In this document: one piece after another, positions 39,831 to 64,000 of the stretch
Layout of the letters: each line of letters starts with the position of its first letter
How positions within the stretch are numbered: position 1 is the first letter of the stretch
DNA from: Yuukianura sp. NJ FZ-2021
Taxonomy: Eukaryota
Reading direction: 5' to 3'
Assembly: GCA_046563655.1 (NCBI GenBank)
Contig: CM102284.1
Location: 310,001 to 374,000 of the forward strand
Length of the DNA: 64,000 nt
Notes under the pieces: model-generated
The model's input: only the letters and a program-made list of their open reading frames with translations
The model's database searches: none
What the model was told of the DNA's origin: nothing
Made by a program: the position numbers and the translations under genes

Positions 39831-40556
39831 ATGCAAACTAAGTTGGTCGTTGTTGTGGTGGGAGTTGTTCTCCTCTTTTTCAGCGTTTGGGGTCAAAGCC
39901 ACAACGCCTCTCCAGAAGTTGGGCTCAGAAGGAGACCACACAAGGTCATATTTAAAAAAAAATTTTTTTTGAAAAATTCAAAACGTTTTCACAATTTCGT
40001 TTTTGTGTAACTATCTTTGGAATTTGTTTAGAGCTGCGTTGGTAATGGAGGGGCGTGTAAGGGACGTTGTTGCCATAGATACTGGTGTGTGCTGGAGGAT
40101 GCTGGAAGTACTGGTGTATGCAGACCCAAGTCGAGGTGTAAAAATAACGAAGACTGCGAAAAACACCGAGCCACTTGCTCATTGCCCGATTTCCCATGTT
40201 GTGCAGGCCTCAATTGTTCTTCGCAGTCCGTGTCTGGCGCCTTGTCCGTCTGCAGAAATCTGGTAAACTGCGTAGGGGTAGGCAAACGTTGCGACGGAGA
40301 ACAGGATTGCTGCTATACCCTTTACTGTATTAGGGATCCAAAGGACCAGTTCACCAAAATTTGTAAGTGGAACTTAACACGTTAAATGAAATGTGAACAT
40401 GGTAAAAACAACATTTCTACAATTCAATTATTATGTATACATTAATTTATTTAATTAGTATATATAAATGCCAATTTATTTTATTATATACATGTCACGA
40501 CTTTTGTAAAGAAAAGTGACCTCCTTTTCTTTTTAGGTGCGAAGGAGCTGCCATGA
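39831..40556 (+). CDS. Secreted cysteine-rich peptide with three tandem ICK/knottin-like units (~154 aa)
   Basis: Exons 39831-39944, 40032-40362, 40537-40556. Signal peptide MQTKLVVVVVGVVLLFFSVWG, basic propeptide end RRRPHK, then three C-C-CC-C-C frameworks. Confidence 0.8.
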
Positions 40557-45478: not shown

Positions 45479-48426
45479 CTATTTGAAGAGCGTTCTGACT
45501 CCAAATCGAAATCCATCCCAGAGCTTATTGACGGAATACTGCTTGAGACAGTACATTCCTTGTGTAGGGTCATTGGCTCTACCTTCAATTACATAAAATA
45601 AATAATACAGTTTAATTAATATATTTTAAAATGTAAAATATATTAAATTCCTTACTGAATGCATAGACAATTCGATTTCCAAAGTCAAAAATGCTGTTTC
45701 CCGTAGAGGGAAGGTGCGTACTGCCAAAAATCAAGTCAGTAATTCCTGATCCTGCGTCAGGATCATGCGTCAACACGTCTTCACGCAGACGTGCAGTCCT
45801 TTCAGCAATATTCAGTTGTCCAAATCCTGGTAACCTGGTTTCAAAATTTCAAAAAAATTCAAAATTTTGAAAATTTTTTAACTTTTATTGAACTTACCCT
45901 GGGACAACGCCAAAATATGAAATGAAAAATGGTTTTGCCACTTCGCTAATCGTGTCCACAATGTCCGATTTTTCTTCTGCTGGCGTCTGAGAAGTTTGCG
46001 TCGTCGTAGCAGAAATGGACGAAGTTTTATCTGGATTTTTGACTTGTTTTGGTGGGAGGGTGGGACTGGTTGGTGGTGGGGCCGGTGGGGCCTTGCTGGA
46101 AAAGTAGTGCTTGATGTAAGTCTGTGCAATTTGGCCCAACATTCCAGCCAATCCTGAGTCTTGTTGCTGCGGAGACTGTTGATTTTGAGGATGTGGACGC
46201 TGATTGGTCGATGAGGAAAATGCGGGCATCTGATTGGTTGGTCTCGGGAGGGGCTCAATTTCATTACTCTCCTCTCCACTTACGACTTTTTGGGGAGGAG
46301 GGGGTGGTGGGGGGCGGGAATTGTCGGGAGGGGTGAGGAAATTAGACACAATGTTGGAAACTACCCCTTGGATCATTGGACTTGTCGCAACTTGCCCCAG
46401 GAGGGGGAGGGCATTTTGCAGGAGGACGTTGACCTTGTCACCCCCGTCGCCCCCCGAACCACCCCCTCCGGAACTTGCTACTTGCATCAGCATATTGGCC
46501 ATGTTGAGCAAATTCGGGCCCTGTGATTGGTTCCCGCCACTTTGCCGTTTTGTCGCAGTAACATTGACTTTGCCCTTCTGTGCTTGTGGATTTGAATTTT
46601 GCGCAACTGTGATCTTGGAATTTTGTGCCGCTGGAAGAATGACCTTGGAAATATTCTCGGGTGGAGCAGAGTTTACTCTCAGTGGAGGAACTACCTTGGA
46701 AAAAAGTTCGGCCGACGAAACGGTACGTGAAACAGTTTCAGCCGATGAAGCAGTACGTGAAGCAGTTTCGGCAGGTGAAACGGTATGTGAAGCAGTATCG
46801 GCCGGAGCAGGCGGAACTTGAGCAATTTGTCGAACGACGGCACGTCTGTTTCCAGTCGAAGCACGGCGCACACGTCTGTTTGCCTTGCCGTTGCCAAAAA
46901 CTCGACTGACAATGTTGCCAACTCCTTCGTTGGCAACATTGTACAAACCATACTCCATGTAGCAGTATCCCAAATTGAATTCACGACTGTAAGCAACGTA
47001 GTTCGTCTGATACTTGCTCACCCAACCGCCAACGTCTACTCGTTTTAGCAACTCGGTAGCCGTCGATGCCGGTAAAACCGTCGAAATTCCTTCAACGACA
47101 TCCGACATTCCGATACTCCGCATCAAAGCCCCGACGAACTGAAATGCTTCTGCCAGTATCGTACTGTTTAAAGTACTTTCGACCGTTTCCGGTTTCGGTG
47201 TGGTGAAAGGTTCGACTTTTTCCATACTCGTATCGTTTAGATTCACGCACGGTTCGGTCGTTGTCGTAGTTGGATTTGTCGATACATCGTTTTCGGTGTC
47301 CACTTCTTCCGACGAAATGTCGTCTTCTGGACGTTTTTTTATTATCAAACGCGGGCTGCGATTTGAGTGCGGATGGGGTGGACTTTCGTCGGAATTGGCC
47401 GATCCCTGACACCTTGAAACACAAAAGGTCAAAGGTCAAGGTCATTCTAACACTTTTTGAAACGTAACAAGGTCAAAAACATCATGTTTTCAAAATTTTG
47501 AAAAAATTTTGAAAATGTTTCCAAAAACTTACTTCACTGGAAGGCCATTGGAACAACAGAGTGGTTCAGCCGAACTCACGCCAGCATAGATCCAGTGCAT
47601 GTCGCACCATCTAAAAATATGAAAATTAATTTAGGAAGTTTTGTAATTTGGGAGATAAAAGTCAAATAAGTAAATTTTTTTTTTTCAAAATTAGACTTTT
47701 TCGAAAGATTTCAAAATTTTATTTTTTCATTACCTGTAGAATCCTGCTAGCCACCTTGGATCTGTTGTGCGCATGTTGCGTTCTTGTTGTCTCCAGCCAG
47801 CAGGCGATGCAATGTGGATTCTTGGCAGTGGCACTTTGGCTGAAGCGTTGAATCGCTGACAAACCAAGGTTTTAGTAGCGCTGAGAATCAGCGTCTGAAC
47901 TAAAACTGGCTTCTCTTGGTTGCTCATCGCTCGAACCAATCGCTGACAATCGCTCGCACACTTAGCTCGATCTCCAAGCGATGTGCAGTTTGTCGACACT
48001 GGATTTCCTGAAAAATTCCACAAAAAATTTAACCCACGATTCAACCAACTTTGTGGAATTTTTCAAAATTTGCTTTTTATGAACTAAAAATTTCTTTGAC
48101 AAAATGCTGAGGTAGGTTCTACACACAAGGAAACCAAAAAATTCAAAGTTCCTGCTGAATTTTTAAATAAAATAATAATAAAATGTTAATAATTTTAGTT
48201 AAAACATATTTAATTAAAAAGTGCCTGTTAGTGTAGGTGTTGCGTCTGCTGAGAATTGAAGTGGCGGAGAGCCGAGGAGGAAGACGCCACATTGACAAGT
48301 GCTCGCAATTGCATTGTCCTCACTTCCACTTCCACTTAACTCGGCTTTCACTGTTCCCCCAAAGGTCAAGGGCAAGGTCAAGGTCACCACTGTCCAAATC
48401 CAACCAATCACGCAGCTTCTTTTCAT
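45479..48426 (-). CDS. Secreted protein with an N-terminal follicle-cell-protein-3C-like Cys domain and a long low-complexity body, 6 exons
   Basis: Signal peptide, then CQCGVFL...C...CASDC...VC...WCDMHW...PLCCSNGLPVKC; ~500-aa T/S/P/Q/G-rich exon; terminal exons ending YCLKQYSVNKLWDGFRFGVRTLFK* at 45479. Confidence 0.75.
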
Positions 48427-49380: not shown

Positions 49381-52088
49381 GAGATGAGAGTACTTTTACT
49401 GCACAAGTTGAATAAAATGAATTTAAAAAAAATGAGAAATTTGTATTTTGACATGACACTCTGCTGAAAAATTTAATTTCTCGTGAGAATCAAAAATACC
49501 AATAACTTAATTCAAACTTTGTGATTTCTGAGGAGCGTAATTTGAGTGCGTGGCGCAGACTGCCAAGACCAGAGTGGTGTTAATTGTGTGTATCACTTGA
49601 GAGTGGCAGTAGTAACACAGTTTCGCGATGAATGACTCCTTCATCTTCCTGTTCGGAGTGAGTCAACACATTTAAACTTGCAATTCACCTCTTGTGCTAC
49701 CAGCTAATGTTTGAATTTGAATTTGAAGGTTTGCCGCCTCTCGGAGGCATAAAATGAAATTGGACCACAGTCTAAAAATACTTCCATTTCATCCTAGGGC
49801 TAAAATTGGCCAAATCCAAGTGACCGTGTCCACTTGTGAGGGTGGACTAAAAGTCGGACTTTTGAGGACGACGCCTTAGGGGTTTCAAGTAGGCTGCAAC
49901 ACTTCACTAAACTCATGTCCAATTTCTACTTTTTGGTTCCGGATTCCATTACTCAGGTATCCCAATTTTCAAAAACATAGCCTAACTTCACCTGAAAAAC
50001 AAAAATCTAAAGTGTTTTGGAACAAGATGAGACCCTTAAGGCCTAAGGGCTGGACCCTTCAAAATCCTGGGAGGAAAATCTTGTTTGGAAGTTTGAACTT
50101 TTCTTGAAAATTTTCGTTTCTTGAAAAAGGAAAAGGAAATGGATTTCAAATGACTTGGCAGAAGAAGGAACACAATGGAAACGGTTTTGTGTCGGATTCC
50201 GTGCGAAGTAAAAGCAAAACTGTTTCTTCAAAAAGAAAAAAAAAAGAGAAAAAAAAACTTTCTACAGTTGTTACAAAAAAGAAAAAAAAGTAATTTTGAA
50301 ATCCTAGAGGTCAGCGGAGGTCACTTTTAATGAAAATGGACTTTTTAAAGAACAATTTTTTAAAGAAATCAAAGAACCGATGATATTTGTTTTAAAATAT
50401 TTTTTGCTTTTGTCATTCAATACACACCCAGAGGCAGTTTGAAAGGAAATTTTGAAAAAAAAACAAAGGTTTTCTTTCTTTTTTTTTTCAAGAAGGTTCA
50501 CGGAAATTGGGAAAAGAACCTTGAAATTTTAGCTTTATTTTTTCTTCCATTATAAAATTGGGGAGGAAATTGAAAAAAAAGGAATTTTCTTCTGAGAAAA
50601 AAGAAAAGAAAAAGCGGCAGTTTTTGAGTGAAACCTAAAATTTCATAAGGATTCGTGGGGAGAATGGGGTCAAAGCGTCATCAACCCAAAGCTTAATTTT
50701 TCATGTCGTTAAAAACCACATTCTCAGTCACGTTGAACTTCTCGAAACTTCACAAAAGAAAAAATAGTAAATCACGTCGTAGTTATAACTCAAAAAATGA
50801 ATAGAATCAATCAACCGGAAGATTAAAACTTAAAAAAAAATCAGATCAAGCCTTTGTTTGCATTTTAAATCTTCCCTCCCCAATTTTCAGTTTCACTTGG
50901 CCAAACCCAGTACAAATTGCAAAGAAATTGGCAAACCGAATTTGTGGTTCCGCTCATTTTCCACACTAAAAACAACTTTTCACAAAAAACTGAAAAAAAG
51001 TTTCAAAAAAAAACTTGATCTACCAAAAAATTTGAGTTCCGGCTACAACACATACTCGCTCAAACTAAAAAGCATGCCAAAATTTTACACAAATTCTCCA
51101 CTTTTCCAAAATTATCCCAAAATTTTCAAACTTTTTTGGAATTTTCCCTCGCAAGGTCAAAGTTGTAAAAGATCAAGTGAAAAGCAAGTGTAAACGTAAA
51201 CTAAAATGCAAAAAAAAAACTGAATGTTAAATGGAAGAGCTACATTTTTCACACGCATGCGCGTCGCGAAAAATTCAAAATTCGACACGAACTGTGGCCA
51301 AACTGTACAAATTTTGTTTGCATGCGACTACTAATTGCATTTTTTTTGTCTCTAAAATTTCTGTTTCATTTTCTATGTTATGTTTGAAATTTAAGGCGTT
51401 TATTTAACACAATGTTGAAAATATGATACGGAGCTGAGAGGTTCCTTCCGAAAACTCAGAAAAAGTGAGGAAGCGCTTACCTTAGTTAGTACAATTTAGC
51501 AATATCCCGTTTAATACTTAACCGTAGCCACCTAGCCTTAACTTTCATAGTTAACTTTTTAATTCACATTATTAACTTAGGCAGTTAACCTTAACTTTCG
51601 AAAGTTAGTTAACTTCTGAATTTGAATTTATGATTAGCTTAAGATTAGTTAGCGTAACCTTAAATTTTTTTGGTTAAGAGTACCTTCCCAAACACAGTCT
51701 AAAATACATTTCATCCCTGATTCCTTTTACAAAAAACTTAGTTTTTCTAAAACTAGGTTTTCTATAGTTTTTCTAAAATTTAGTTTTTCTAGAAACTAAC
51801 TGATTTCTTATGTAAAAGAAAGACTTGCGTCATGTGGCGAGTAGTTTAGGAGTTTTTGAAGGCAGAGAGGACAGGTACGGCGACATTGGAGCTACACTTG
51901 TCTCCTTCCTTCTGATTGGTTGGAACAGGACGACGGACGCTTTTGATTGGTTCAAGTTGTGGCCAATGAAAAACAGGAATGAAGGTTTGTAGTTGAGCGC
52001 AAAGTTTTCAAAGGTTGGCGGGGACTTTGTGATGATTTCCGGAAGTTTAGCTCCTCCCCCGGAAGTTTAGCTCCTCCCCCTGGAAACT

Positions 52089-53344
52089 TTAGTTTTGTGT
52101 GCCATAGAATTTGGGGGCGGAGCTCCAGCTCGGATCTTGTTCGCCTTCGTCCGAGTCTGAGTCAAAACTGGAGTCACCATCTTGGTCCCCAGCGTAAATC
52201 GGAGTCGGAGCCTCTTTTTTGCCGCCTTTGAGAGAGGCGGCGGTGAGTGTCTTGAAACAATTGTTGCAAACACGTTGCGGTTTCTTGGACATCGGCAGAA
52301 CAAACTTCTTGCTACAGCAATCTGCAATGCAAAAAAACAGCAATAACAGTAAAGGTCAATAGAATTCAACAGGAAGTTGTTGGGTGTGTCCGTGACGTAC
52401 TTCCGCAGTAGACTCCGCCGTCGTTACGACAGTGGTGCCTTCGGTTGACAAAGGTGAACACGCCCTGACACCCTTTGCATGTCGTAGCCTCTGCATCCGG
52501 CACCCAAAGTGCTGCATGCTGTTCCACAGGCTTCTTCCCACTTTTCTTGAGAAGGTCAAAGACACAGCGCTGAATGTGGGCCATCCACTCGGCTTTTTCC
52601 GTTGAAGTGGCAGCGTACACAGCAAAACTCTTACTTGCAGTGCGAATGACCCAGCCATTCTTCAGAACTAAAACGAAAACATAACGATTAACATTAACTG
52701 ACGAAAATAACGATTAATTGTCGATTTAGTAACTGCAAAAGTAAAGAATACTTACTGCCTTCGTCAGGAATGGACTCCAATTTTACTTCTTCTAGGGGAA
52801 TCACATGTTGCTTGTTATACTGCGCATAAAACAAAGTCAAAGTCAATTAAGATTGACATTTCAATGACACTGTGATGGACATGGTCCATGATGATGATCT
52901 TTGTCCAAAGTGGACACATTTTTTGTTCTTGACTTTCACTTTTTACCTTTTTCTTATTGATGAGAATATTTCCGTAGACGAGAATATCGTTGAAGAGGAA
53001 GAACTGTCTGGGTTTTGGTTTCTTGCGACACATCTTCGTTAAAACTCCTTCTCCCACAAGTACCCGTCCAGGAACAGATAGAGACTGTAAACAACCAATA
53101 ATAACATCATATCATTCCAATTCCAAAGTAATTAACTAACTTTAGATCAATTAAGTTAACGATTAAGGTCAATTACTTGTCCCGATGTTCCGAAGCACCC
53201 TTCGACGCATGTGATCCTCCTAGCATTGGCTTCGCTGTTTACTAAAAAACGAAATATCATGAGAATTAGGCAATTGTCGACAATGTGACGAAAATAAAGT
53301 ATCAATAATATGAACGGCTTATTCTTACCGAGTCGGTCCACCAT
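52089..53344 (-). CDS. PLEKHF2: Phafin / PLEKHF (PH + FYVE + poly-acidic tail; Drosophila rush hour-like)
   Basis: MVDRLVNSEANARRI..VEGCFG, GEGVLTKMCRKKPKPRQFFLFNDILVYG, KSFAVYAATSTEKAEWM, WVPD, RRHHCR, RVCNNC, DSSFDSDSDE tail. Confidence 0.96.
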
Positions 53345-53896
53345 GTTGGCCTTGGTCAGCTGATTGGTCAGTTCTGATTTTCAGATTAGTAGTGGACGAA
53401 GGACGAGTTAAGAGCTACTAATAGTCTTCTGAATGGACAAGACAGTGATTAGATGAGTCGCACTTGAAAAGACGGACATCCAGCTCTACGATAACCCACG
53501 GACTTTTAGAAACGATGAGTCACCAAGTCCATACACTTTCTTTTACTATCACTGACGTCATCAACAATAAGTAGTTACAAAAATATGGAGTTTCAGACCT
53601 TCTTTGACTGACCTTTTGACCTGTGACGTCTTGGAGTAACAACGGACGATGCGGATGGAAGTTAAGTGACTTTTGATGATTCTCTATCTTCTGGTGAAGC
53701 TGATTACCTCTAAATTAGGACTAATTGATGAGGGGAACTTTAGTTTTTCTGTGTTTTCTATTTCTATGTGCAACTTCGCCTCCCAGCTGTGAGAATGGGA
53801 AATAGAGGGGAACGGAACCTCTTCAATACATTTTTCGGTTGACGTACACAAATACATGCTAGGTTGTACCCGCGTAACGAGTAACTACAACGGTTA

Positions 53897-54087
53897 CACT
53901 GTTGCTGGATATCCACTTTTTTGCATTTTGTCCGGGCGATATCCACTGGATAAATGGATAAATCCGGATAAAATCCAGTTTCCAATGGACGAAATCGAGT
54001 TTCGTTTGGAAAAAACCAATAAAATCCGGATATATCCATCACTTTCGAGGAGAGTGGAAGAAATATTTTGTCCGTAGAGCAACACTG
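53897..54087. mobile_element. hAT-like MITE
   Basis: Ends CACTGTTGCT...AGCAACACTG (1 mismatch) with internal GGATA/TATCC sub-terminal repeats. No clear target-site duplication. Confidence 0.55.
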
Positions 54088-55164
54088 ATAAAAACAAGTG
54101 TAAGTGCCCACACGATTAGGTGGTTAGTGTATATTACGCAGTATGATACGTACTAAACTCAGAACAAAGAACTAAAATTCCGGGTCGTATCCTACCCTTC
54201 TTCCGGCCTTAAAATTACTTTCAAATTACATTCCCTGAAGATAATGTGTAAACTAAAACGTAAATGTATAAAATGTAAAAGGTTGGCCGTAAATATATAG
54301 CATTTAGAATACCTTGCAGTATAACTAAAAGAAATTACAATATCACAATGGTTGTATGTTTAACTTAAGTGTAAAAGTATTCGTCACTTCCACTACTCAT
54401 CCCAAGTGCTAAACTTATATGGAAGAAGTGACGCATCTTCAAATTAGAAGTGGCTTTATCCGTTTTACATCCAACTAATTTCGGAAATGAAACTCTCAAT
54501 TAAACTTAACAACACTATGATTATATTGACGTCAAAACTTAAATTTTGAGCGGTATTTACATTTTGGGAGTGAGATTTAAGAAAAGAGTTGAGTGTAGTA
54601 GAAAGTACGAGTGACCTTGACCTTGATTTGCCATCAGGATCAAGTGGACAATGGTATAGAGGCAAAAGACCTTGGACAAATATAACCTCTGTCAAACAAA
54701 AACGAGATTCATGCAGCTTGTGAATTGAAGACGCTCTTAGTTTCAGTCCTCTCGAATACACATAAAATGTAAACTATTTCATTACTATATTTTATTATAA
54801 TAAGGATATTAATGATCTCAACACTTGAACAAGTGGTCGGTCACTAATTATTCCTTCACACTCTCTATTCAAAACAACATTAAACAGAAGTTTGTTTTTC
54901 ACTGAAAGGAAATTATGGTCCGGAGTCATTTGGTTTATCTGCCCAATATTCTACCGTAATGCAGCAGTTTCATTTTGAACCCACTTTATCTTGGAGTGAA
55001 GCAGTGAAGTGAGAAACAGTTGAAGTGGCCGATAAGCCCCTGTCCCGTGTCACGAGGTCACTATCTAAACATAGTCATTAAATTTTCCATTTGCTGGAAT
55101 TTACCGTACGTCAGTCTCACTTTTGAACCTGCGCTGAGAAGATTCCAAAAGTGAAAGTTACAAA

Positions 55165-57182
55165 ATGGAGAGAAAGAAACAAAAGACGCATGCGCAGGCG
55201 AACGGACACAAAATGGGTGGGACTGGTGGGTTCTGGAGGTCATTGACCGTGGAACCAGCACTGTTGACCCACATGCTTTCTCTCGTCCTGGTCTACATGG
55301 TCGTACAGGACTTCATGACAGAAAAAGTTTGCTCCGTCAACCTGGGGTACTCGGACAAAGTATGCAAAACACTCATGTCACAAGATGGGTAAACAATATT
55401 TATTAGAATAAAACTACTTTAAAAAAATTTTTTTTCGAAATTTTTCTTTGTTATGATTAAACCTTTGATTTGTAGATCTGGAGATGCTTACCAAGAAGAG
55501 AAAGTCGAAGTGCAGAAGATGATCGGAACATTGATGATGGCTCGGACTTTTCTGGAAAACTTTTTCCCGCTCTTTCTCGTGCTGCTGATTGGTGCTTGGA
55601 GTGACAAGTATGGTCGGAAACTACCGATGCTCTTTGTGCTGGCTGCCTATGTCGTCCAGAACGTCGTTTTGCTTCTCTGTGTCTTCTTTCGACACAGTTT
55701 GGGTGGATGGACGGTTGCTTTGGCCGTTTCCTTGATTCCAGCCCTAAGTGGCAACACTGCCTGCTTCAACATGGCTGCATTTAGTTTTGTGGCAGAGAAT
55801 ACGCCACAGGAAAAACGGACGGCTCAAACAGGAGTGGCGCACTCGATGATGTTTTTTGGCGTGACAGTTGGACTAGCTTTGAGTGGAGTCATAGCAAAAA
55901 GTGGACTTGGATTTGCAAATGTGTTTTTGCTGGGAGTTTTGCTGGAGGGAGCAATTTTTGCCTACGTTTTGCTGGGCGTCAAAGAGAAGGCAAAGAAAAA
56001 AGGAAGTTCTTTTGGTACAATGTTTATGGAAATTTTTGACTTCAAACACATCACGGATGCTGCGGAAGTTGTGACGAAACGACGGGAAGGAAACACGAGA
56101 ACCAAGTTGTACATTTTGCTGGCAGCACATTTTTGTGCCTTTGCTCCCCTTATGGGTAAGTCAAATTTTGCCTTCCTTTTTTTGCTGTTGAGTTAAAACT
56201 AGGGAAGAGGGAATATTTTGTGAAAACTTTTCAAAATTTTGAAAACGATTTAAATTTTTAGGTGAAATGACGGTGTACTTCCTCTTCGGAAACTACAAGT
56301 TCAACTGGGACGGAGGTCAACTGGGGCTGTTTTTGACGTTCAAAAACGTCGTGGGTTTTGTCGGAAACTTCATCACGATGGGCATTTTGACTGAAAAACT
56401 GAAACTGTCGGATCCAGTTATAGGAATCATCGGAGTACTGTCCTTGCTCACCTCCAGTTTGTACTTTGCCAGTGTCAACAGTGGTCATCTCATGTTTGTT
56501 GGTATGACCTTTGACCTTTTTTGACCTCTGACCTTTGACCTCTGACATAATCTGATGTAGCGTTTGACCTCTCCCTGTCAACCACCAATGAGGATTGCAT
56601 CGAACTCAGAAGCTGGGATAGCCAGTGTTTGAGATAATCTAGGAAGGAGCAGATAGCTCAAGGGTTAGAGCGCTTCCCGGATTGAAAAGGCGAGGGTTCT
56701 AATCCCACTCGGATCAAATATTTTTTTGCGATATTTTTGACTCCGTTCTCAACCCAATGTTAGCCCTAAACTTGACATTGACGTTAACTGATTTCTGTTT
56801 TGCTAGGTCCAATTCTGGGCATACTCAGTGGTGCGAGTATTTTTGTGCCAAGGTCAATCCTGTCCAAGATGATGCCCACAGATGAGCTGGGCAAGGTCAA
56901 CTCTTTTCTGGGTTGCATTGACTCCGTGGCTCCCCTCATGGCTGGACCAATCTACTCCCTCCTCTATACTCACACATTCCAAGTATTCCCGGGAACATTC
57001 TTCCTCCTCACGGCACTACTCACCATACCACCACTACTCGGATACTTGTAAGCATCAAAATACTTCCAAGCATCTCAGAATGTACTGGCAGCATTCCACA
57101 AAGTATTTAACACCTGTTTCCTTTTTTGTTTTCCAGGTACTTCCTGTCTCACCCAACTAAAGAAGCGTCCAAGAAAAATTAA
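55165..57182 (+). CDS. SLC46-family (proton-coupled folate transporter-like) MFS transporter, 5 exons
   Basis: TVEP motif, EKVCSVNLGY..VC loop, GAWSDKYGRKLPM (MFS motif A), RSILSK...ELGK, FPGTFF; ~12 hydrophobic segments. Confidence 0.9.
56647..56715 (+). mobile_element. Degenerate tRNA-like element in an SLC46 intron
   Basis: GAGCAGA-TAGCTCAAGGGTTAGAGC...GGGTTCTAATCCCACTCGGATC followed by a T run; closely similar to 2713-2782. Confidence 0.7.
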
Positions 57183-57549
57183 TAATTTTTCTTTTAAAAT
57201 CGCAATCTTAATTTTTTAAACAAAACTAATTTGAATTTGAGAAAAATTAAACTAATTTGAAATTTTTGACTGTTTTACAACAACTCAAAATTTTGTACCA
57301 AAAGATGGTTTCGGATAAGGATTTTTTTTTTCGGCCCAACAATTTTACAATTTTGTGGTTTACAATTTTGTGTTTATATTCTTTTTTTATTTAATTTTTC
57401 TAGTTTAGGATAAAACCTTCTGTCCAGATTTAATTTTGCATTTCAAATTAGTGTTCAAATTCAATTGCATTTCAGAATTTTTGAATTTTAGTTACAATTT
57501 GGAAGTTAGGAAAGTAGTTTTTGAATTTTGAAATTTGAATGTAAGGTTA

Positions 57550-58102
57550 TTAATGCTTAGAAATGTTAAAGCAAGTCCCGACGTATTGGAAGCAAATATT
57601 GGAACAGCATTCGTAATTGGCAACACATTTTTCCCCAGCTTTTCTCTTTATACATATTTCTTCGTTCTTGATGCACTGGGACTTTCGCAAGCATCTGCCA
57701 GCATTTCCAGGAGATTCCAGCACACACCAGTATCTATGGCAACAACGACCAGTACATTCACCACCATCTCCAACACAACCCTGTCAATTACAGCAACTTT
57801 TTAACAAAATTCCAAATTTTGAAATTTACAGTTTCCAAATTAATGTTGTTTTTAAGAAAAATATACCTTAGGTTTTCTTCCTTTCCGCAAAACGTCAATT
57901 TCGTTGGTGGACAGATCACGGTCAGCAACAGCAAAACTTTTGACGCTTTTGCAGCAAAGGACGAGCAAAAATCCAGCAAAAATCAAACTCCACCCACTGC
58001 AAAAATTATAAACGATAAAGTTGTTTAGGTTTTTGGTAATTTAGCATGTATAGAAGGAAGCACCTAGTTTTCGTCAACTTAAAAGTGCAAACTTTACCTC
58101 AT
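57550..58102 (-). CDS. Secreted cysteine-rich peptide with two ICK/knottin-like units (~121 aa), paralog of 39831-40556
   Basis: Exons 58102-58098, 57996-57867, 57780-57550 join in frame: MSGWSLIFAGFLLVLCCKSVKS...RKGRKPK-GCVGDGGECTGRCCHRYWCVLESPGNAGRCLRKSQCIKNEEICIKRKAGEKCVANYECCSNICFQYVGTCFNISKH*. Not present in the ORF track. Confidence 0.8.
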
Positions 58103-59558
58103 GATAATGATTTCGTAAAGTACAAAAAAGTGGAACAGTTTTGAGATGCAGAGATTGAGTTTTCGTTAAACGTTTGGCTGATTTCGGGCGAAATAAAAGA
58201 AGAATTGTTCAAACAGCCTTCCAACCAATCAGAATTTGAGGTCACCGCATTACCCTAAAACCAACGTGACCTCGTGTCACAACCTCAAAAAATAATATTT
58301 TGTGTGACAAGCTAAGGCTCAAATCAACTTAAATTCTGAATTTTAACAAAGAGTTTCGTTGGCTGGCAGTTCTTTTTTGATTTTTCCAGAAATGGAGCAA
58401 CAGCCTTTGCTAACTAGTTCAAATTTTAAAAACCTGCTTTTCAAAATTAAAAAAAAGTTGGTATTTTTACCACTTTCGAAATGAAATGTTTTCTGAAAAT
58501 AATTAGAATTTTGTCCAGAAACTTGTCGACCAACAAATTATGAAAAACATTTTATATTTTGAGTTGGTAAAGCTAGTGCTGAAATTTTTTTGCGGATGGG
58601 CTGGCATGACTTAAAATAAGCAAAAAGTGACCTTAAAGTAAAACCAAAAAGAATTGCAAGAAACAGACACAAACTGAAGTAGAAAAGTAACATTTTAGAA
58701 CATTTTACATTGTGCAGCCACAACAGCCACACAAACACTCACACCATGAATCGCACCATATTTTTGGTAAGAACAAAACTGTTTTTATTTTACAGTTTTT
58801 CAAGGTCACGAGGTCAGGTCAATGACCTTGACCTTGAGTTGACTAAAAGTACATAATTAGAAAAGTCAATTTATTATACAAAGTTTGGAGGAAAACGAGA
58901 ATTGCACTTTTTATGCAAAAGAATTTTTGGGTGTGGGAAGTATGAAATCATCATTTTTTTTAAAGAGAAAATGAAATTTGAAATTTGCGTCGCCGTTTGT
59001 AGAGCGAGTGAATTTGGTAGTGCATGATGCATGCAAATTCAGTCAACCAATGCAGTTCCATACTCCAAAGGATCAATTGACATCAATGTTAAATATAGTT
59101 TTCATTTTTTGCAATGTTGCAAAAAATTGCAACGTGGCAGCAAGTTTGCCTTGTTTTGGTTATTTCATGATTTTAATGCTCATTCTAAAATGAGGGTCAC
59201 GCATCTAATTAATTTTTATATACTCATGTAATATATTAATATGCTGATAAGCATATTATAATATATCAAATTGTAAAGTCTATATTAATGTTTGTATAAA
59301 GTTAAAGAGTGGATTCAAAAGTTATTTTTTGCGAGTATTTTTTGGGGAGGAAATTGGCAAACCACAAAAGAATTGCGATTTTTTTGCAAATTGTGAGTTC
59401 AGACTCATCAGAGTGATCATACTTTTCATTGTTGTTTCTATTTGTGCCTGAGCACGGCCGGACTCGGAAGTGTGTGCAAATATTTTTGCACGAAACCAAT
59501 TTTGGCATCTGAAAAATCTTTTTTATAAAAAGTTACTAAAATTTGTACTAATTTGAAA

Positions 59559-61412
59559 ATGTTTCGTTACTGTGATTTGAAGTTGCGCGGAACAGTGTTC
59601 CGGAGGATGTGGTGGAAAAGTGCATTTCTCATCACATACACGGCAGTTATCGTTTGTCTTCATTTGTACGTTCGCGGCCTAAAAATGGAATTCAAACAAA
59701 CGCTCATTCCAATACTCGGTGTAGTCACTGGTCTTCTACTCGTCTTCAGAACAAACACGGCCTACGACAGGTGAAAACCCGCCAAAATTTCAAAATTTTA
59801 AAATTTCAAATTTTACCGCCAGCATTTTACACGTACTACACTTAAGCAACCTTTTCTAAACAAAAACATGCAAGAAAACGAAGAACGTCTATTACAATAC
59901 TAACGAAATTTGAGTGTTTGTCTGTCCGTCCGTTCGCTTTAACAAAGTACCATCAAAATATACACTATACATTTTTAGCTTACTGCGGATAAATTTTTCC
60001 CTGAACTTTTTTGTTTTCCACTTTTTTGAAATTTTGGTTTTTGAAATTTTGTGTTTCAAAATTTTAGGTACTGGGAGGGAAGACGTACTTGGGGTCAGAT
60101 GACCAACAACATTCGAACTTTGACACGCAGTATTTGGACGTCAGTGAAGGAAAAAGAACCGACGGATTTGATTGAGAAAAAGTCAGTGATAAACATTCTA
60201 ATTGCGTTTGCAGTTGCGACAAAACACTACTTGCGACATGAATATTCTTACGACTACGACGACTTGCGACATTTGATCAAACACCTTCCGACATTCTCCA
60301 CTCCCTCGTCCAATCAGCCTCTAGCAGACCAAGAATGCCCGCCAAAAGTGTCGTGGGTCCGCCAAGCACATGACACAGCCACGCCCACAAACATTCCGAT
60401 TGAGTTGTCGTACTATGTCGCAAGTTACATCAAAGATGTCAGTGGGCGTGGCTTAGTCGAAACTCCCATTCACTCTACTATGCAAGCAGGTGAGCTAAAA
60501 AGGCAGGACTTAAAGGATGGAGGTAGCTCAATGGTGAGAGCGATTAGCCTGGAACGGTAAGATGTGGGTTCAAATCTCACTCCAATCATGGATTTTTTTC
60601 TCTTTCTTGCTATATACAGTAGATGTAACCAACTGGGCATCGATTTCACATGAAAAAGTTCAAAATTAAAGAAAAGTTTTTTTTTTCTGTGAAAATTTAC
60701 AAAATTTTGAAGTTTTTGGAGAAATTTTGATTTTGGCTTTTCGTTTATACAGCTTTGGCGTCTATGACTGAGTGCCTGACAACTTTTGAACGCATTCTAC
60801 GCACACCGATACCGATTGCCTACTCTGTGCATTTAACTTACTGTACCTGGATTTACCTGTTGGCACTTCCGTATCAGCTGGTCAATGACCTGGAGTGGTG
60901 GTAAGCACAGAGTTTCAACTCTTTTCGAAAAAAAAAACGTTTCAAAATTTTGAAAATTTTGAATCCTAGGACACTTGCCGCTGTTGGTCTCGCCTCTATA
61001 TCACTACTAGGAATACTAGAAATTGGAAAAGAAATTGAAAATCCGTTTGGTTATGACGCAAATGATTTGGTAAATGCAAAATTCAAAAAGTTGAAAACCC
61101 TAACTTAAATTTCCAAAATTTTTGAAAAACTTAGCAATTTTTTGGAAATTTCAGCCACTAGACGACTTTTGCCAAGTGATGAAGCGCGAAGTGCGGATGA
61201 TCATAGGAAACAGAATTCCCCCCACCAGTGACTGGGTGTTTGTGAGCGGAAATACGCCGTTCGGTGATTCGTCGACTTTAAATGCGCAGGAGTTGTCAAA
61301 ATTGTCGCTCACAGAATTGCACCAAATCCTGTCTGAGGATGCGCAGAACGCAGTTCCACCCAAAACAAAAGGCAGGACGAACGTAGTTGCTCTCGAAGTG
61401 ACAGAAAAGTGA
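59559..61412 (+). CDS. UPF0187/YneE-type (fungal/bacterial/plant VCCN-like) bestrophin anion channel, 5 exons
   Basis: GLLLVFRTNTAYDRYWEGRRTWG, FAVATKHYLR, NIPIELSYY, FERILRTPIPIAYSVHL, LPYQL, IGKEIENPFGYDANDL-PLD; no animal RFP motif seen. Exons ~59559-59770, 60069-60489, 60752-60900, 60970-61069, 61155-61412. Confidence 0.92.
60516..60587 (+). mobile_element. Degenerate tRNA-like element in bestrophin intron 2
   Basis: GATGGAGG-TAGCTCAATGGTGAGAGC...GTGGGTTCAAATCTCAC-TCCAATC followed by a T run. Confidence 0.7.
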
Positions 61413-63093
61413 TTAACAATTGGATATTACATAATATAACATATAATTCATAGAAATACATATTAATTAATTAATAATAATAATATAATATGAACGAGGA
61501 ACGTCGTTTTCATCAACTCAAGTTATATTTTTATTTAGTACTTCCTAATCCAAATCCAATGTATTTGTAAGTAGGATATATTTCATTACATTTCACATTT
61601 AAATTTTAATGCCGGCCGATGTTGCGTATCTTCATTGTAATCGCACACCTAACAAATAAACAAAAGTCACTTTTGTTTACAAAACTCTTGACATGTAACA
61701 TTTATATATAATAATTAAACAAATTAATATATACATAATAATGAATTATACCATATTATTTTATGAACACTTAATTCAACGTTGAGTTCAACCTCAAAAA
61801 AAAAGTGGCACAAAGCCCCCCTTTTTGTTGTACAACTTTTTGACTTTTAAAATTTAAAATAAGTTGTGGCCTATTAACTAAAATTTCAAAAGAGTTTGTG
61901 AAATTTTAGTGCACTACCTACACTGCAGTTTCTTTCAAGAAAAACTATTGTCATAAAAATTCTCGCCGGTTCAACTATGTCAAAAGTCTAACAAACTCCA
62001 ATTTTTCTCCCGAGTAGTAAAGGATTTTTATCAAAAAACTTCAAAAAATACTTCAAAAAACTTCAAGCGATTGTTAATTAATTCCATTTTCAAAAGTAGT
62101 TTCACACATTGCAGAAACGTGTTTTCACCAAGTACTCGTGTAATATTTTTAATTAGTGCTTCCTCCTCCGAGTCCAATGCATTTGTAAGTAGAATCTTTC
62201 CTAAATTGTGCATTTAAATTTTAATGCATCCACCAGCACTCGGACGTCCATTTTTGCTACATCCTTACGCTATTCAAGTCGTTTAAGAATTCAGTCCAAA
62301 GCTAATGAACTTTTTTTTTGTCACAAACGAGGTCGCGTTCTACTAACGATGACCCAACCAACTGCAGAAAATTTTAAAATTTTAGAAATGACCTAGCAAA
62401 GCAATTTTTAGAAGAAAAAAGCTACGCCTTTTGAATGTTCGAGAAACAAAAAGAAATTGTGACAAAACTTTTAAATTAGGTGTTCAGTAGCTGAAATCGG
62501 CTCACTTTGTTATTGTAGTGCAATAGCTACCACATAACTCCTAATTTTCAAACTTTTTAGTACTTCTTAGTACTCTGAGTTTTAAAAAATAGATGGAGTT
62601 TTACTATTTTTTTTTGGAACTAATAATTGGCTTTGTTTTTCGAAAATAAAGCAAACCTTTTTATTTTATACCTTTTATTTTAAAAATAAAAATAAAACCT
62701 TTTTATTTTTATTTAAAAAAAATAAACTTTTTAATTGCAAAAACGTCGAATTGGTGAATTCCACAGCAAATTTACAGTTTACTATAGTGTTGAGGCGTTT
62801 TTTTCAAAGTCGATACTTCGCTTTTTGCTGTAAATAGCTTTTCGTGCTGTTTTTGCTCTTTATGCTTTAAAAGAAAAAGTTGCTATAAATGTTGCTGCAA
62901 GGAATGCGTCCGAATTCGACTTGGATTTAACGTATTAAATAGCAACATATTTAAAACAAAACAGCAAACGTGAGCTGGTCTCGCTGTTTCCTTCTTTTGC
63001 TTTCAAAGCAAAAAAAGCAAACAACAACAGCATCTGCTTTCAAACACTTCGGAACAGTGCAGTTTTACAACGTTTTTTTAAACTGAAGCGGAA

Positions 63094-64000
63094 ATGTTGA
63101 CCAAGGAGAGTCGTCGTATGCTTGGCCTGTACTTTGGAACTGCCGGTAAAATCGGGTTTCTGCCTTTGCATTGGGACAAAAGGTCAATGACCTTTGACCT
63201 CTCCAGCTCCTCGGGCATTTGGTTTTTCTGGATGGGCGTTATGTGGGCGAAAGTCATTTACCTCACGATCATCCTGGTCAAATTGGTCATAATTGACCAA
63301 GAGAAAGTCCGCAACATTATTTTCCATTTGTTCATCTACCTACCGTATCTTCAAGCGGGAATTCATCAGTTGAACTTGTTTAGAGTTCTGAACGAATATA
63401 AAATTCTCTACAGAGACTTGGTTATATTCAACAATATAAATTTGGGTAAGATACATCTCATTCAATTCGATATGCCGTCCACAACACAAAAATTACCGTC
63501 CGAAACACAACAAACCAAAACCCCGGCCAATACTACACAAAAATAGCCGGCTAAAAATAAATTCCCACTTGAAACAGAAAAGAGAATCCCGAGGAAGGCG
63601 AAAGTATTGCCCAACGCCGGCTGAAACTCTCAAACCAAATTAGGCCGGCTAAAACAATTTCCGCGGCCAAATAAAAACAATTTTTTTTTGTCGGAGATAA
63701 TGTTTTTTTTCTTAATTGAAACTTCGTATTGTAGGAAAACAACCAAAGGTATCGACGGATGAAACTATATTCGACGGATCGGCAGACATGACGAAACGCA
63801 GTATACTCATGATGTTTGGCATTTCTTTTAGCATTTTAGCAATTTCCCTCCAATTTCCGAATTTGCCCCAATTCTATTCTTCTTTATTTTCCACCGATTC
63901 GTCCGCGGTTAATTTTGGTTGTGGCCTCCTGGAGGCCATAACTGCCGCTGTCGCCTGGACAACAAATTTAAGCTACTCTAACATTTTGCCAGCGATGTCT
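63094..64000 (+). CDS. Divergent multi-pass membrane protein, probably gustatory/chemoreceptor-like; runs off the window end
   Basis: MLT...GFLPLHWD N-terminus, several hydrophobic segments, an intron at ~63446-63734, and an open second exon with more hydrophobic segments. Confidence 0.6.

What the first reader, a model, noticed from the sequence alone, without database searches (positions are those of the whole stretch)
59559..61412. Microbial-type bestrophin in an animal genome: probable horizontal transfer, now intron-containing
Seen: FRTNTAYDRYWEGR, ERILRTPIP and EIENPFG.D.NDL motifs, four spliceosomal introns (one carrying the host tRNA-like repeat), and animal genes on both sides. Known: these motifs define the UPF0187/YneE/VCCN branch of bacteria, fungi and plants, whereas typical animal bestrophins belong to the RFP-motif branch. 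Inference: an old, domesticated transfer; the IEKK..IN..IAFAVATKHYLR segment looks fungal to me.
Basis: partly seen in the sequence, partly recalled or inferred. Interest (0 to 1): 0.75.

Follow-up and report, generated by a model that had tools for sequence, protein, structure and literature searches.

The report
Fungus-derived bestrophin gene in a springtail
An intact, intron-containing ion-channel gene of the bacterial/fungal bestrophin type sits among ordinary animal genes in what is most likely a springtail genome; it belongs to a gene family that springtails took long ago from a soil fungus related to Mortierella, a family already listed as foreign in a 2016 springtail genome paper.

Summary
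Window 59559-61412 (+) encodes a 379-aa protein in five exons with four GT-AG introns. Exons 1-4 each pass Pfam's cut-off for PF25539 (bacterial/fungal Bestrophin_2), not the animal family PF01062. Intron 2 carries a tRNA-like repeat that also occurs elsewhere in the window. GC content, codon third positions and read depth match the neighbouring animal genes. A calpain-7 tree puts the host next to the springtails Folsomia and Orchesella.

The interpretation (an old, domesticated transfer of fungal type) is supported. The only named animal relatives are springtails (47-57% identity). Next come Mortierellomycota (46-50%), then other early fungi. In a cyanobacteria-rooted ML tree, animals plus Mortierellomycota form a clade (100/99) nested in fungi. 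Forcing all fungi together costs 30.9 lnL (AU p 0.037). Three of the four introns sit at the same position and phase in three other springtail-clade loci from metagenomes.

It is not new as a kind. Table S6 of the Orchesella cincta genome paper (2016) already lists five members of this family as transferred genes. The probable function, a pentameric bestrophin-type channel, is inferred. No RNA data were found for this gene.

The parts
59559..59770 (+). Exon 1. It runs from the start ATG to FRTNTAYD plus the first two bases of the R71 codon, and holds the putative neck residues V55, L59 and F63.
   Evidence: PF25539 48.2 bits. The same M-F-R start is seen in metagenome locus L081.
59771..60067 (+). 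Intron 1, 297 nt, GT..AG, phase 2, GC 0.30.
   Evidence: Same position and phase in L081, L129 and L138.
60068..60489 (+). Exon 2. It holds YWEGR, the IEKK..ATKHYLR helix and the fungal/springtail-type insert.
   Evidence: PF25539 53.4 bits. Used as query.
60490..60752 (+). Intron 2, 263 nt, GT..AG, phase 1, GC 0.34.
   Evidence: Same position and phase in L081, L129 and L138.
60516..60592 (+). tRNA-derived repeat (SINE-like) inside intron 2, followed by a T run.
   Evidence: ARAGORN tRNA-Ser(gga)-like. About 70%-alike copies at 56647-56716 and about 2700-2775 on the minus strand. High read depth and loose ends at 60522 and 60560.
60753..60900 (+). Exon 3, holding ERILRTPIP.
   Evidence: PF25539 48.9 bits. 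On its own it hits KpBest chains at E 2.6e-4 and bestrhodopsin 7pl9 at E 1e-4.
60901..60969 (+). Intron 3, 69 nt, GT..AG, phase 2 in the second W of LEWWT. Found only in the window's gene among the four loci compared.
60970..61069 (+). Exon 4, holding EIENPFGYDANDL.
   Evidence: PF25539 31.8 bits.
61070..61154 (+). Intron 4, 85 nt, GT..AG, phase 0 (NDL|PLD).
   Evidence: Same position in L129 and L138 and in L081.
61155..61412 (+). Exon 5, the C-terminal cytosolic part with the TGA stop.
   Evidence: It aligns to springtail and fungal homologues up to about residue 360-371.
55423..57160 (+). Context: the neighbouring host MFS transporter gene, 2.4 kb upstream. It has a copy of the same tRNA-like repeat in an intron.
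   Evidence: PF07690. Atlas look-alikes are arthropod MFS / proton-coupled folate transporter clusters, a lead only. Rfam tRNA at 56647-56716.

Best explanation
This is a functional host gene for a bestrophin-type ion channel of the bacterial/fungal branch (Pfam PF25539). It descends from one old horizontal transfer, from a fungus on or near the stem of Mortierellomycota into the springtail lineage. After transfer the gene acquired (or kept) spliceosomal introns, took on host base composition, and duplicated into several paralogue lines. The window holds one copy of one such line. By inference from the family, the protein assembles as a homopentamer. Its central pore would be gated by a hydrophobic neck (here V55-L59-F63, aligned to I62-I66-F70 of the Klebsiella channel KpBest) and would conduct small inorganic ions. 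Shown here: the gene structure, family membership, host context, nesting of the animal sequences inside fungi, and shared intron positions. Inferred: expression, pentamer formation, channel activity and ion selectivity.
For: Gene and family: there is an open five-exon CDS with GT-AG introns. Four exons pass the PF25539 cut-off. The protein matches 56 of 57 columns that are at least 90% conserved in a 59-sequence family alignment, and all 14 invariant columns. It matches 121 of 134 columns invariant among 7 springtail proteins. A springtail profile hits KpBest at E about 1e-35, bestrhodopsin at 1e-25 and AtVCCN1 at 6e-19. An AF2 model of the 57%-identical Allacma homologue (pLDDT 83.6) matches KpBest with target-normalised TM 0.84.

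Host context: the window's calpain-7 is sister to Folsomia plus Orchesella (99 SH-aLRT). CDS GC/GC3 is 0.465/0.50, against 0.42-0.525/0.45-0.53 for seven host exons; the introns have GC 0.24-0.34. A host tRNA-like repeat lies in intron 2. Contig depth is even across the flanks and the gene in runs of two studies: X1 48.6-59.2, X2 147-178, X5 3.4-5.5.

Origin: full-length identity is 55-57% to Allacma and Folsomia, 46-50% to Mortierellomycota and less to other fungi. All named animals among the listed hits are springtails. In the careful ML tree of 59 rows rooted on cyanobacteria, animals plus Mortierellomycota have support 100/99, Mortierellomycota alone 100/99, and the clade nests with Basidiobolus (99/94) and Zoopagomycota (97/90). 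The AU test disfavours a tree with all fungi held as one clade (delta lnL 30.9, p 0.037).

Age: introns 1, 2 and 4 are at identical position and phase in L081, L129 and L138. These loci are only about 50-68% identical to named springtail proteins (L081 is 51% identical to the window protein). Members occur in Symphypleona (Allacma) and Entomobryomorpha (Folsomia, Orchesella).
Against: No RNA run holding this gene was listed, so expression and splicing are unverified here. Monophyly of the animal sequences is only moderately supported (76/84; 76% of bootstrap trees), so more than one transfer is not excluded. The AU p of 0.037 is only just below 0.05. Seven rows counted as animal are unnamed metagenome or Logan proteins. 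Only the best 120 of 4548 hits were seen, so more distant PF25539 genes in other animals cannot be ruled out. The host is placed by one gene tree that lacks Protura, Diplura and other springtail orders. The fold was modelled on a homologue, not on the window's own protein. Ion selectivity cannot be read from sequence: KpBest conducts Na+, whereas VCCN1 and the animal bestrophins conduct anions (passages of PMC8496536 read; abstract of PMC9076864 seen in the listing).
Confidence: 0.8

Rival explanations
1. Vertical inheritance: the gene was present in the common ancestor of animals and fungi and was lost in every animal lineage except springtails.
For: The family is ancient and widespread: 8351 cluster representatives at E<=1e-3. 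The AU test rejects the fungi-only clade only at p 0.037. Only the top 120 of 4548 hits were inspected for animals.
Against: The animal sequences attach to the Mortierellomycota stem (100/99). They lie inside a fungal clade that excludes chytrids, Glomeromycota, Umbelopsis, Calcarisporiella and an ascomycete, with cyanobacteria as root. Identity to Mortierellomycota (46-50%) is well above identity to chytrids (34-38% on exon 2). No non-springtail animal appears in either hit list.
Confidence: 0.05
2. Contaminant fungal DNA was assembled by mistake into an animal contig.
For: The protein is about 48% identical to soil-fungus proteins. Springtails eat fungi (recalled, from no call).
Against: The four introns are AT-rich like host non-coding DNA, and one carries a host-wide tRNA-like repeat. 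GC3 equals that of the host genes. Contig depth is the same as in the flanks in runs of two organisms and studies; in organism B one contig (59425-59812) joins upstream intergenic DNA to exon 1. No listed fungal protein is more than about 50% identical.
Confidence: 0.02
3. The gene is a decaying or silent relic: a real old transfer, but this copy no longer makes a working channel.
For: No RNA holder was found. The window branch is fairly long (0.71). 13 of 134 springtail-invariant positions differ, including a W-to-K change next to the EIENPFG motif.
Against: The frame is open across five exons with canonical splice sites. All 14 family-invariant and 56 of 57 near-invariant positions are kept. 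Organism B carries the gene at host depth, about 5-7% diverged. The close relative P0001 is a full-length ORF on a 1.4-kb, apparently intron-free contig, which looks transcript-like.
Confidence: 0.1
4. Springtails received the gene several times independently from related fungi, or Mortierellomycota received it from springtails.
For: Animal monophyly has only 76/84 support, and the base of the animal-plus-Mortierellomycota clade is a polytomy. In one tree a long Rhizophagus paralogue fell among the animal rows.
Against: Three intron positions and phases are shared by four divergent animal loci, which fits one origin followed by duplication. Mortierellomycota is monophyletic (100/99), and the joint clade is embedded among other fungi, which fits fungus-to-animal transfer. 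The Rhizophagus row has a branch of 2.79 and is likely misplaced.
Confidence: 0.07

Closest known systems
Orchesella cincta 'Bestrophin/UPF0187' genes (orthomcl5020; Ocin01_08902, _08903, _13490, _15013, _16099), listed as HGT genes in Table S6 of PMC4987106
   Same: They belong to the same protein family and the same animal clade in the trees. They are 51-53% identical to the window protein. The paper flagged them as foreign, with a glomeromycete fungus as best hit (supplement passages).
   Different: They come from a different species and a different paralogue line. The window groups loosely with the unnamed protein P0001, not with the Orchesella genes. The paper gives only index scores (h 160-261, no extra phylogenetic check) and never discusses the family in its text (0 occurrences of 'bestrophin'). 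The Mortierellomycota sister relation and the shared introns are not in it.
Mortierellomycota Bestrophin_2 proteins (e.g. Linnemannia, Podila, Mortierella; P0006-P0080)
   Same: They are 46-50% identical over nearly the full length. They share the insert and the IEKK..ATKHYLR helix. They form the sister clade (100/99).
   Different: They are fungal genes of unknown function. Their intron positions could not be obtained here. They are typically 40-100 residues longer at the C-terminus.
KpBest, the Klebsiella pneumoniae bestrophin homologue (PDB 4WD7/4WD8)
   Same: It has the same fold (TMt 0.84 for the Allacma stand-in) and the same Pfam branch. The neck is hydrophobic at the aligned positions. 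It is a solved pentamer (5 chains per entry).
   Different: Identity is about 23%. The window protein has a roughly 60-residue insert and an 85-residue C-terminal extension. The neck is V-L-F rather than I-I-F. The aperture I180 aligns to a non-conserved loop. KpBest is a Na+ channel (PMC8496536, passages read); the selectivity here is unknown.
Plant/algal VCCN1/BST thylakoid bestrophin-like channels (PDB 7EK1)
   Same: They are in the same superfamily and are hit at E 6e-19 by the springtail profile.
   Different: They are more distant, organelle-targeted and voltage-gated anion channels (abstract of PMC9076864 seen in the listing).
Canonical animal bestrophins BEST1-4 (Pfam PF01062, RFP-TM)
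   Same: They share the distant common fold and the pentameric channel principle (PMC8496536, passages read).
   Different: The window protein does not reach the PF01062 cut-off (11 bits against 24.2, on one exon only). Whether it has the Ca2+ clasp was not examined.

Membership tests
Pfam PF25539 Bestrophin_2 (bacterial/fungal bestrophin; formerly UPF0187/YneE) | Profile HMM match above the curated gathering score (27 bits) | tested here: met
   Exons 1-4 were scored separately at 48.2, 53.4, 48.9 and 31.8 bits. Together they cover profile positions 15-273 of 288.
Pfam PF25539 Bestrophin_2 | Conserved family residues (the FRTNTAYDRYWEGR, ERILRTPIP and EIENPFG.D.NDL blocks) | tested here: met
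   56 of 57 columns that are at least 90% conserved, and 14 of 14 invariant columns, of the 59-sequence alignment A3 are kept.
Pfam PF25539 Bestrophin_2 | Bestrophin fold (four-TM helical bundle plus cytosolic helical domain) | tested here: inconclusive
The 57%-identical Allacma homologue P0003 (pLDDT 83.6) matches KpBest at TMt 0.84, E 2.9e-13. The window's exon 3 alone hits KpBest by sequence at E 2.6e-4; exon 1 alone gives no hit.
Bestrophin channels in general | Homopentamer with an ion-conducting central pore | not testable with these tools
   This is inferred from the solved relatives, which have 5 chains per entry. No complex prediction was run, because the tool takes at most 4 copies.
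Canonical animal bestrophin, Pfam PF01062 (RFP-TM) | Profile HMM match above the gathering score (24.2 bits) | tested here: not met
   Only exon 4 gives a match, at 11 bits and E 0.23.
Horizontally acquired gene in an animal (criteria as in PMC4987106) | Best non-metazoan hit far better than the best hit in Metazoa outside the recipient lineage | tested here: met
   Among the 101 and the 120 listed hits, the only named animals are springtails. Mortierellomycota are hit at E about 1e-38 for exon 2 alone. Only the listed top hits were examined.
Horizontally acquired gene in an animal | Physical linkage to native genes and host-like sequence features | tested here: met
   The gene shares a contig with calpain-7, caspase, PH-FYVE and MFS genes. 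It also shows even read depth, host GC3 and a host repeat in an intron. The downstream neighbour is unidentified.
Horizontally acquired gene in an animal | Phylogenetic nesting within the donor group | tested here: met
   Animals plus Mortierellomycota have support 100/99 inside fungi, with a cyanobacterial root. The AU test against fungal monophyly gives p 0.037.

The most novel reading that the evidence does not exclude
Introns 1, 2 and 4 were not gained in the animal. They came in with the gene as genomic DNA from the intron-bearing fungal donor and have been spliced by the animal spliceosome ever since. If Mortierellomycota orthologues carry introns at codon 71 (phase 2), codon 212 (phase 1) and after codon 294 (phase 0), this would be a rare documented case of spliceosomal introns surviving an inter-kingdom transfer. 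The gene would also tie stem Mortierellomycota and stem springtails together in time, giving a relative-dating link between early soil fungi and early soil arthropods.
Probability: 0.12. Interest if true: 0.65.

Novelty: new member of a known kind. Interest (0 to 1): 0.4.

Why it matters
Most documented foreign genes in springtails and other soil animals encode enzymes such as carbohydrate-active enzymes, proteases and antibiotic synthesis genes. An ion channel taken from a fungus, kept for a very long time and multiplied (10 members in one O. cincta orthogroup, supplement of PMC4987106) would be an unusual functional class for animal HGT. It is also a tractable one: Folsomia candida is a laboratory model, and bestrophin channels can be assayed electrophysiologically.

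Neither is in the supplement passages of the one paper that lists the family, and three full-text searches found no paper that treats the family in springtails. For genome annotation, the practical point is that this gene should be labelled a fungal-type (PF25539) bestrophin. The names 'UPF0187 protein sll1024' and 'RFP-TM chloride channel' carried by its relatives are misleading.

Tried and rejected
- Whole-genome look-up: no genome is held for this window. Copy number in the host, and whether it also has canonical bestrophins, could not be checked.
- RNA evidence: no RNA holder was listed for the stretch. Only DNA contigs could be laid, and no listed contig spans the whole stretch.
- Earlier notes of this scan: nothing by place, sequence or words.
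- Folding the window's own protein: not possible, because the tools take only contiguous translations. The Allacma homologue was used as a stand-in.
- Exon 1 alone against PDB sequences: no hit at E<=0.01.
- Downstream ORFs 63082-63546 and 63716-64000: no Pfam hit. For 63082-63546 the Atlas gave no usable look-alike.
- Folsomia candida genome paper supplements (2 files held): no occurrence of bestrophin, UPF0187, Fcan01_14539 or PF01062. File 1 of the O. cincta supplement was not searchable.
- Literature: three full-text searches combining bestrophin or UPF0187 with springtail, Collembola, Mortierella or HGT found no paper that treats this family in its main text. 'Fungal bestrophin' occurred 0 times in the 15 listed of 46 papers.
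The metagenome scan returned no Mortierella-like intron-bearing locus among its 80 loci.
- Trees: a Rhizophagus paralogue (P0283, branch 2.79) fell among the animal rows and was left out. Dispira (branch 3.79) and all unnamed representatives except the three named were also left out of the 59-60-row sets. Relative, one search dropped 12 Mortierellomycota rows and 7 unnamed rows that sat inside Mortierellomycota.
- Rejected idea, bacterial donor: the cyanobacterial proteins are only 35-38% identical and fall outside all eukaryote rows.
- Considered and not run: a homo-oligomer prediction. It takes at most four copies, and a pass would mostly reflect likeness to the solved KpBest pentamer.
Full report
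1. The observation

Reading window 59000-62000 and joining 59559-59770, 60068-60489, 60753-60900, 60970-61069 and 61155-61412 gives an open 1140-nt reading frame of 379 codons plus stop. The four introns all have GT..AG ends and measure 297, 263, 69 and 85 nt. Their phases are 2, 1, 2 and 0.

Scored one exon at a time, exons 1-4 each pass the gathering score of Pfam PF25539, 'Bacterial/Fungal Bestrophin' (48.2, 53.4, 48.9 and 31.8 bits against a cut-off of 27). The animal family PF01062 gets 11 bits on one exon. A tblastn of the spliced product finds no second copy in the window.

2. Host context

ARAGORN finds a tRNA-Ser-like element at 60516-60588 in intron 2. Rfam finds a tRNA-like element at 56647-56716, in an intron of the neighbouring MFS gene. 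A three-way alignment shows these, plus a third copy near 2.72 kb on the minus strand, to be about 70% alike, each followed by a T run. Contigs of public runs pile up there (depth about 1058 against a baseline of about 50 in X1) and show loose ends at 60522 and 60560. This is a dispersed host repeat.

Upstream lie an MFS transporter (55423-57160), a PH-FYVE protein, a caspase, calpain-7 and a PDZ protein. The calpain-7 exon hits Folsomia candida and Orchesella dallaii first, though every animal scores 47-53%. In a 31-row tree the window's calpain-7 is sister to those two springtails (99 SH-aLRT). The host is therefore a hexapod of the springtail lineage, outside Folsomia plus Orchesella. Other springtail orders, Protura and Diplura were not in that tree.

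The bestrophin CDS has GC 0.465 and GC3 0.50, inside the range of seven host exon pieces (0.42-0.525 and 0.45-0.53). Its introns have GC 0.24-0.34, in a window of GC 0.387.

Five DNA runs hold the stretch; none is on record as RNA. Four of the five (X1, X2, X3, X5) were laid on 52000-64000. Unique parts of the flanks and the gene have the same contig depth within each run: X1 48.6-59.2, X2 147-178, and X5 (another organism and study, 5-10% diverged) 3.4-5.5. One X5 contig joins upstream DNA to exon 1. Contamination or chimeric assembly is therefore very unlikely. The 2.6 kb downstream of the gene holds only unidentified ORFs.

3. Relatives

Exon 2 alone, searched against longer proteins, returns 101 hits. 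The first is an unnamed JGI protein (57%). Then come six springtail rows (Folsomia candida x3, Allacma fusca, Orchesella dallaii, O. cincta). About 80 Mortierellomycota rows follow, then Calcarisporiella, chytrids and other early fungi.

Over the full length, the window protein is 56.8% identical to P0001 and to Allacma, 55.5% and 50.5% to two Folsomia paralogues, 51-53% to Orchesella, and 46-50% to Mortierellomycota.

A profile of seven springtail-clade proteins finds 4548 proteins at E<=1e-20. Among the 120 listed, ten rows are springtails and every other named row is a fungus. Against cluster representatives the family has 8351, 3895 and 816 members at E<=1e-3, 1e-10 and 1e-30. The nearest prokaryote genes found are cyanobacterial, at 35-38% identity.

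4. Trees

Four trees were built.
- An 83-row tree rooted on chytrids places all animal rows with Mortierellomycota.
- A 119-row FastTree with nine cyanobacterial outgroups and 46 unnamed representatives does the same.
- A 60-row IQ-TREE does the same. In it a long-branched Rhizophagus paralogue, identified, fell among the animal rows, so it was removed.
- A careful 59-row tree (LG+C20+F+G4 PMSF, ultrafast bootstrap / SH-aLRT) gives these supports: animals plus Mortierellomycota 100/99; Mortierellomycota alone 100/99; adding Basidiobolus 99/94; adding two Zoopagomycota 97/90; animals alone 76/84.

Chytrids, Glomeromycota, Umbelopsis/Bifiguratus, Calcarisporiella and the ascomycete Saitoella lie outside that 31-row clade of animals, Mortierellomycota, Basidiobolus and two Zoopagomycota.

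Holding all 35 fungal rows together, which is the expectation under vertical descent, costs 30.9 log-likelihood units (AU p 0.037). This result is significant but not overwhelming.

The pattern fits a transfer from the stem of Mortierellomycota, or an unsampled relative, into springtails. Duplications followed: Folsomia has members in at least two animal sub-lines, and O. cincta has tandem genes 08902 and 08903 on one contig.

5. Introns are old

The metagenome scan returned three intron-bearing loci of the animal clade. Their best named matches are Allacma and Folsomia at 60-68% mean identity over the aligned pieces, and L081 is 51% identical to the window protein. L081 lies on a 17-kb AT-rich contig that also carries a trypsin-like ORF.

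Reading the junctions gives the following.
- Intron 1: all three loci have it in the R codon of AYDR|YWEG, phase 2.
- Intron 2: all three have it at M..A|L, phase 1.
- Intron 4: all three have it at NDL|PL, phase 0.
- Intron 3: none has it.

Three of the window's four introns thus predate the divergence of these genes. Whether they arose in the animal or arrived with the fungal gene could not be tested, because no fungal genomic DNA was reachable.

6. What it probably does

The springtail profile matches the solved pentameric channels: KpBest (E about 1e-35), the bestrophin part of bestrhodopsin (1e-25) and AtVCCN1 (6e-19). The window's exon 3 alone matches KpBest at 2.6e-4. An AlphaFold2 model of the Allacma protein (59-row alignment, pLDDT 83.6, pTM 0.76) superposes on KpBest with target-normalised TM 0.84.

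In the HMMER alignment the I180A mutant chain fixes the numbering offset. With that offset, the KpBest neck I62/I66/F70 (residue names from passages of PMC8496536) aligns with V55/L59/F63 of the window protein. The neck is therefore hydrophobic, with an aliphatic middle residue as in the Na+-conducting KpBest rather than the Phe of animal anion channels. The aperture position falls in a poorly aligned loop.

The window protein keeps 56 of 57 near-invariant and 14 of 14 invariant family columns. I infer a homopentameric ion channel under purifying selection. Ion selectivity, gating and physiological role are not known.

7. What is already known

Three full-text searches found no paper discussing this family in springtails. 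The supplement of the Orchesella cincta genome paper (PMC4987106) is the exception. [quoted passage not shown] For these genes the best hit is Rhizophagus irregularis, the metazoan scores are 0-41.6, the non-metazoan scores are 199-291, h is 160-261, and the 'additional phylogenetic check' column reads 'no'. The orthogroup table lists orthomcl5020, 'Bestrophin/UPF0187', with 10 members in O. cincta and none in the other species compared (main-text method and counts from passages). The two held supplement files of the Folsomia paper do not mention the family.

The transfer as such is therefore catalogued. The window adds a further member from a different, unannotated springtail-lineage species. 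This analysis adds the Mortierellomycota sister relation, the multiple old paralogue lines and the conserved introns.

8. Verdict

Novelty is modest: a new member of a known kind. Interest is 0.4. A fungal channel domesticated in an animal is uncommon and testable, but springtail HGT is well known and this family is already on a published list.

Noticed in passing
window 60516-60592 (+), 56647-56716 (+), about 2700-2775 (-): A tRNA-derived SINE-like repeat family, with a tRNA-like head followed by a T run. The copies are about 70% alike, and public-run depth there is 10-50 times the baseline.
   Followed up: partly
window 53600-54400 and 62400-63200: Two further stretches have contig depth in the thousands in all four runs, presumably other dispersed repeats. 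The one at 62.4-63.2 kb overlaps the start of the unidentified downstream ORF.
   Followed up: no
window 59788, 60054, 60940 (and 9 other places): The AT-rich word TTTCAAAATTTT occurs 12 times in the window, three of them inside bestrophin introns 1 and 3. Intron 2 also shares a 39-nt, 87% match with 45841-45877. This points to a small host-wide simple repeat in the introns.
   Followed up: partly
window 40032-40385 (+): A 117-aa cysteine-rich open frame with two knottin-like halves has no Pfam match at E<=0.01. It may be a secreted peptide gene.
   Followed up: no
window 45894-47435 (-): A 513-aa open frame rich in P, S and T, with short internal repeats, has no Pfam match.
   Followed up: no
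window 63082-64000 (+): Two hydrophobic open frames directly downstream of the bestrophin gene look like a multi-pass membrane protein. Neither has a Pfam match, and the first (63082-63546) has no Atlas look-alike.
   Followed up: partly
L081 9257-9697 (+): The metagenome contig with a springtail-clade bestrophin gene also carries an ORF ending in an IVGG...trypsin-like start. This fits an animal origin for that contig.
   Followed up: no
proteins P0001, P0029, P0079, P0223 (JGI): These full-length springtail-clade proteins lie on contigs of only 1.27-1.40 kb. The contigs therefore have no introns and are probably environmental transcripts, which hints that relatives are expressed in soil samples.
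   Followed up: partly
calpain-7 tree, rows P0104, P0106, P0108, P0109, P0110: An unnamed five-row clade of calpain-7 sequences sits beside springtails and insects. It may represent other soil hexapods or crustaceans present in the databases without names.
   Followed up: no
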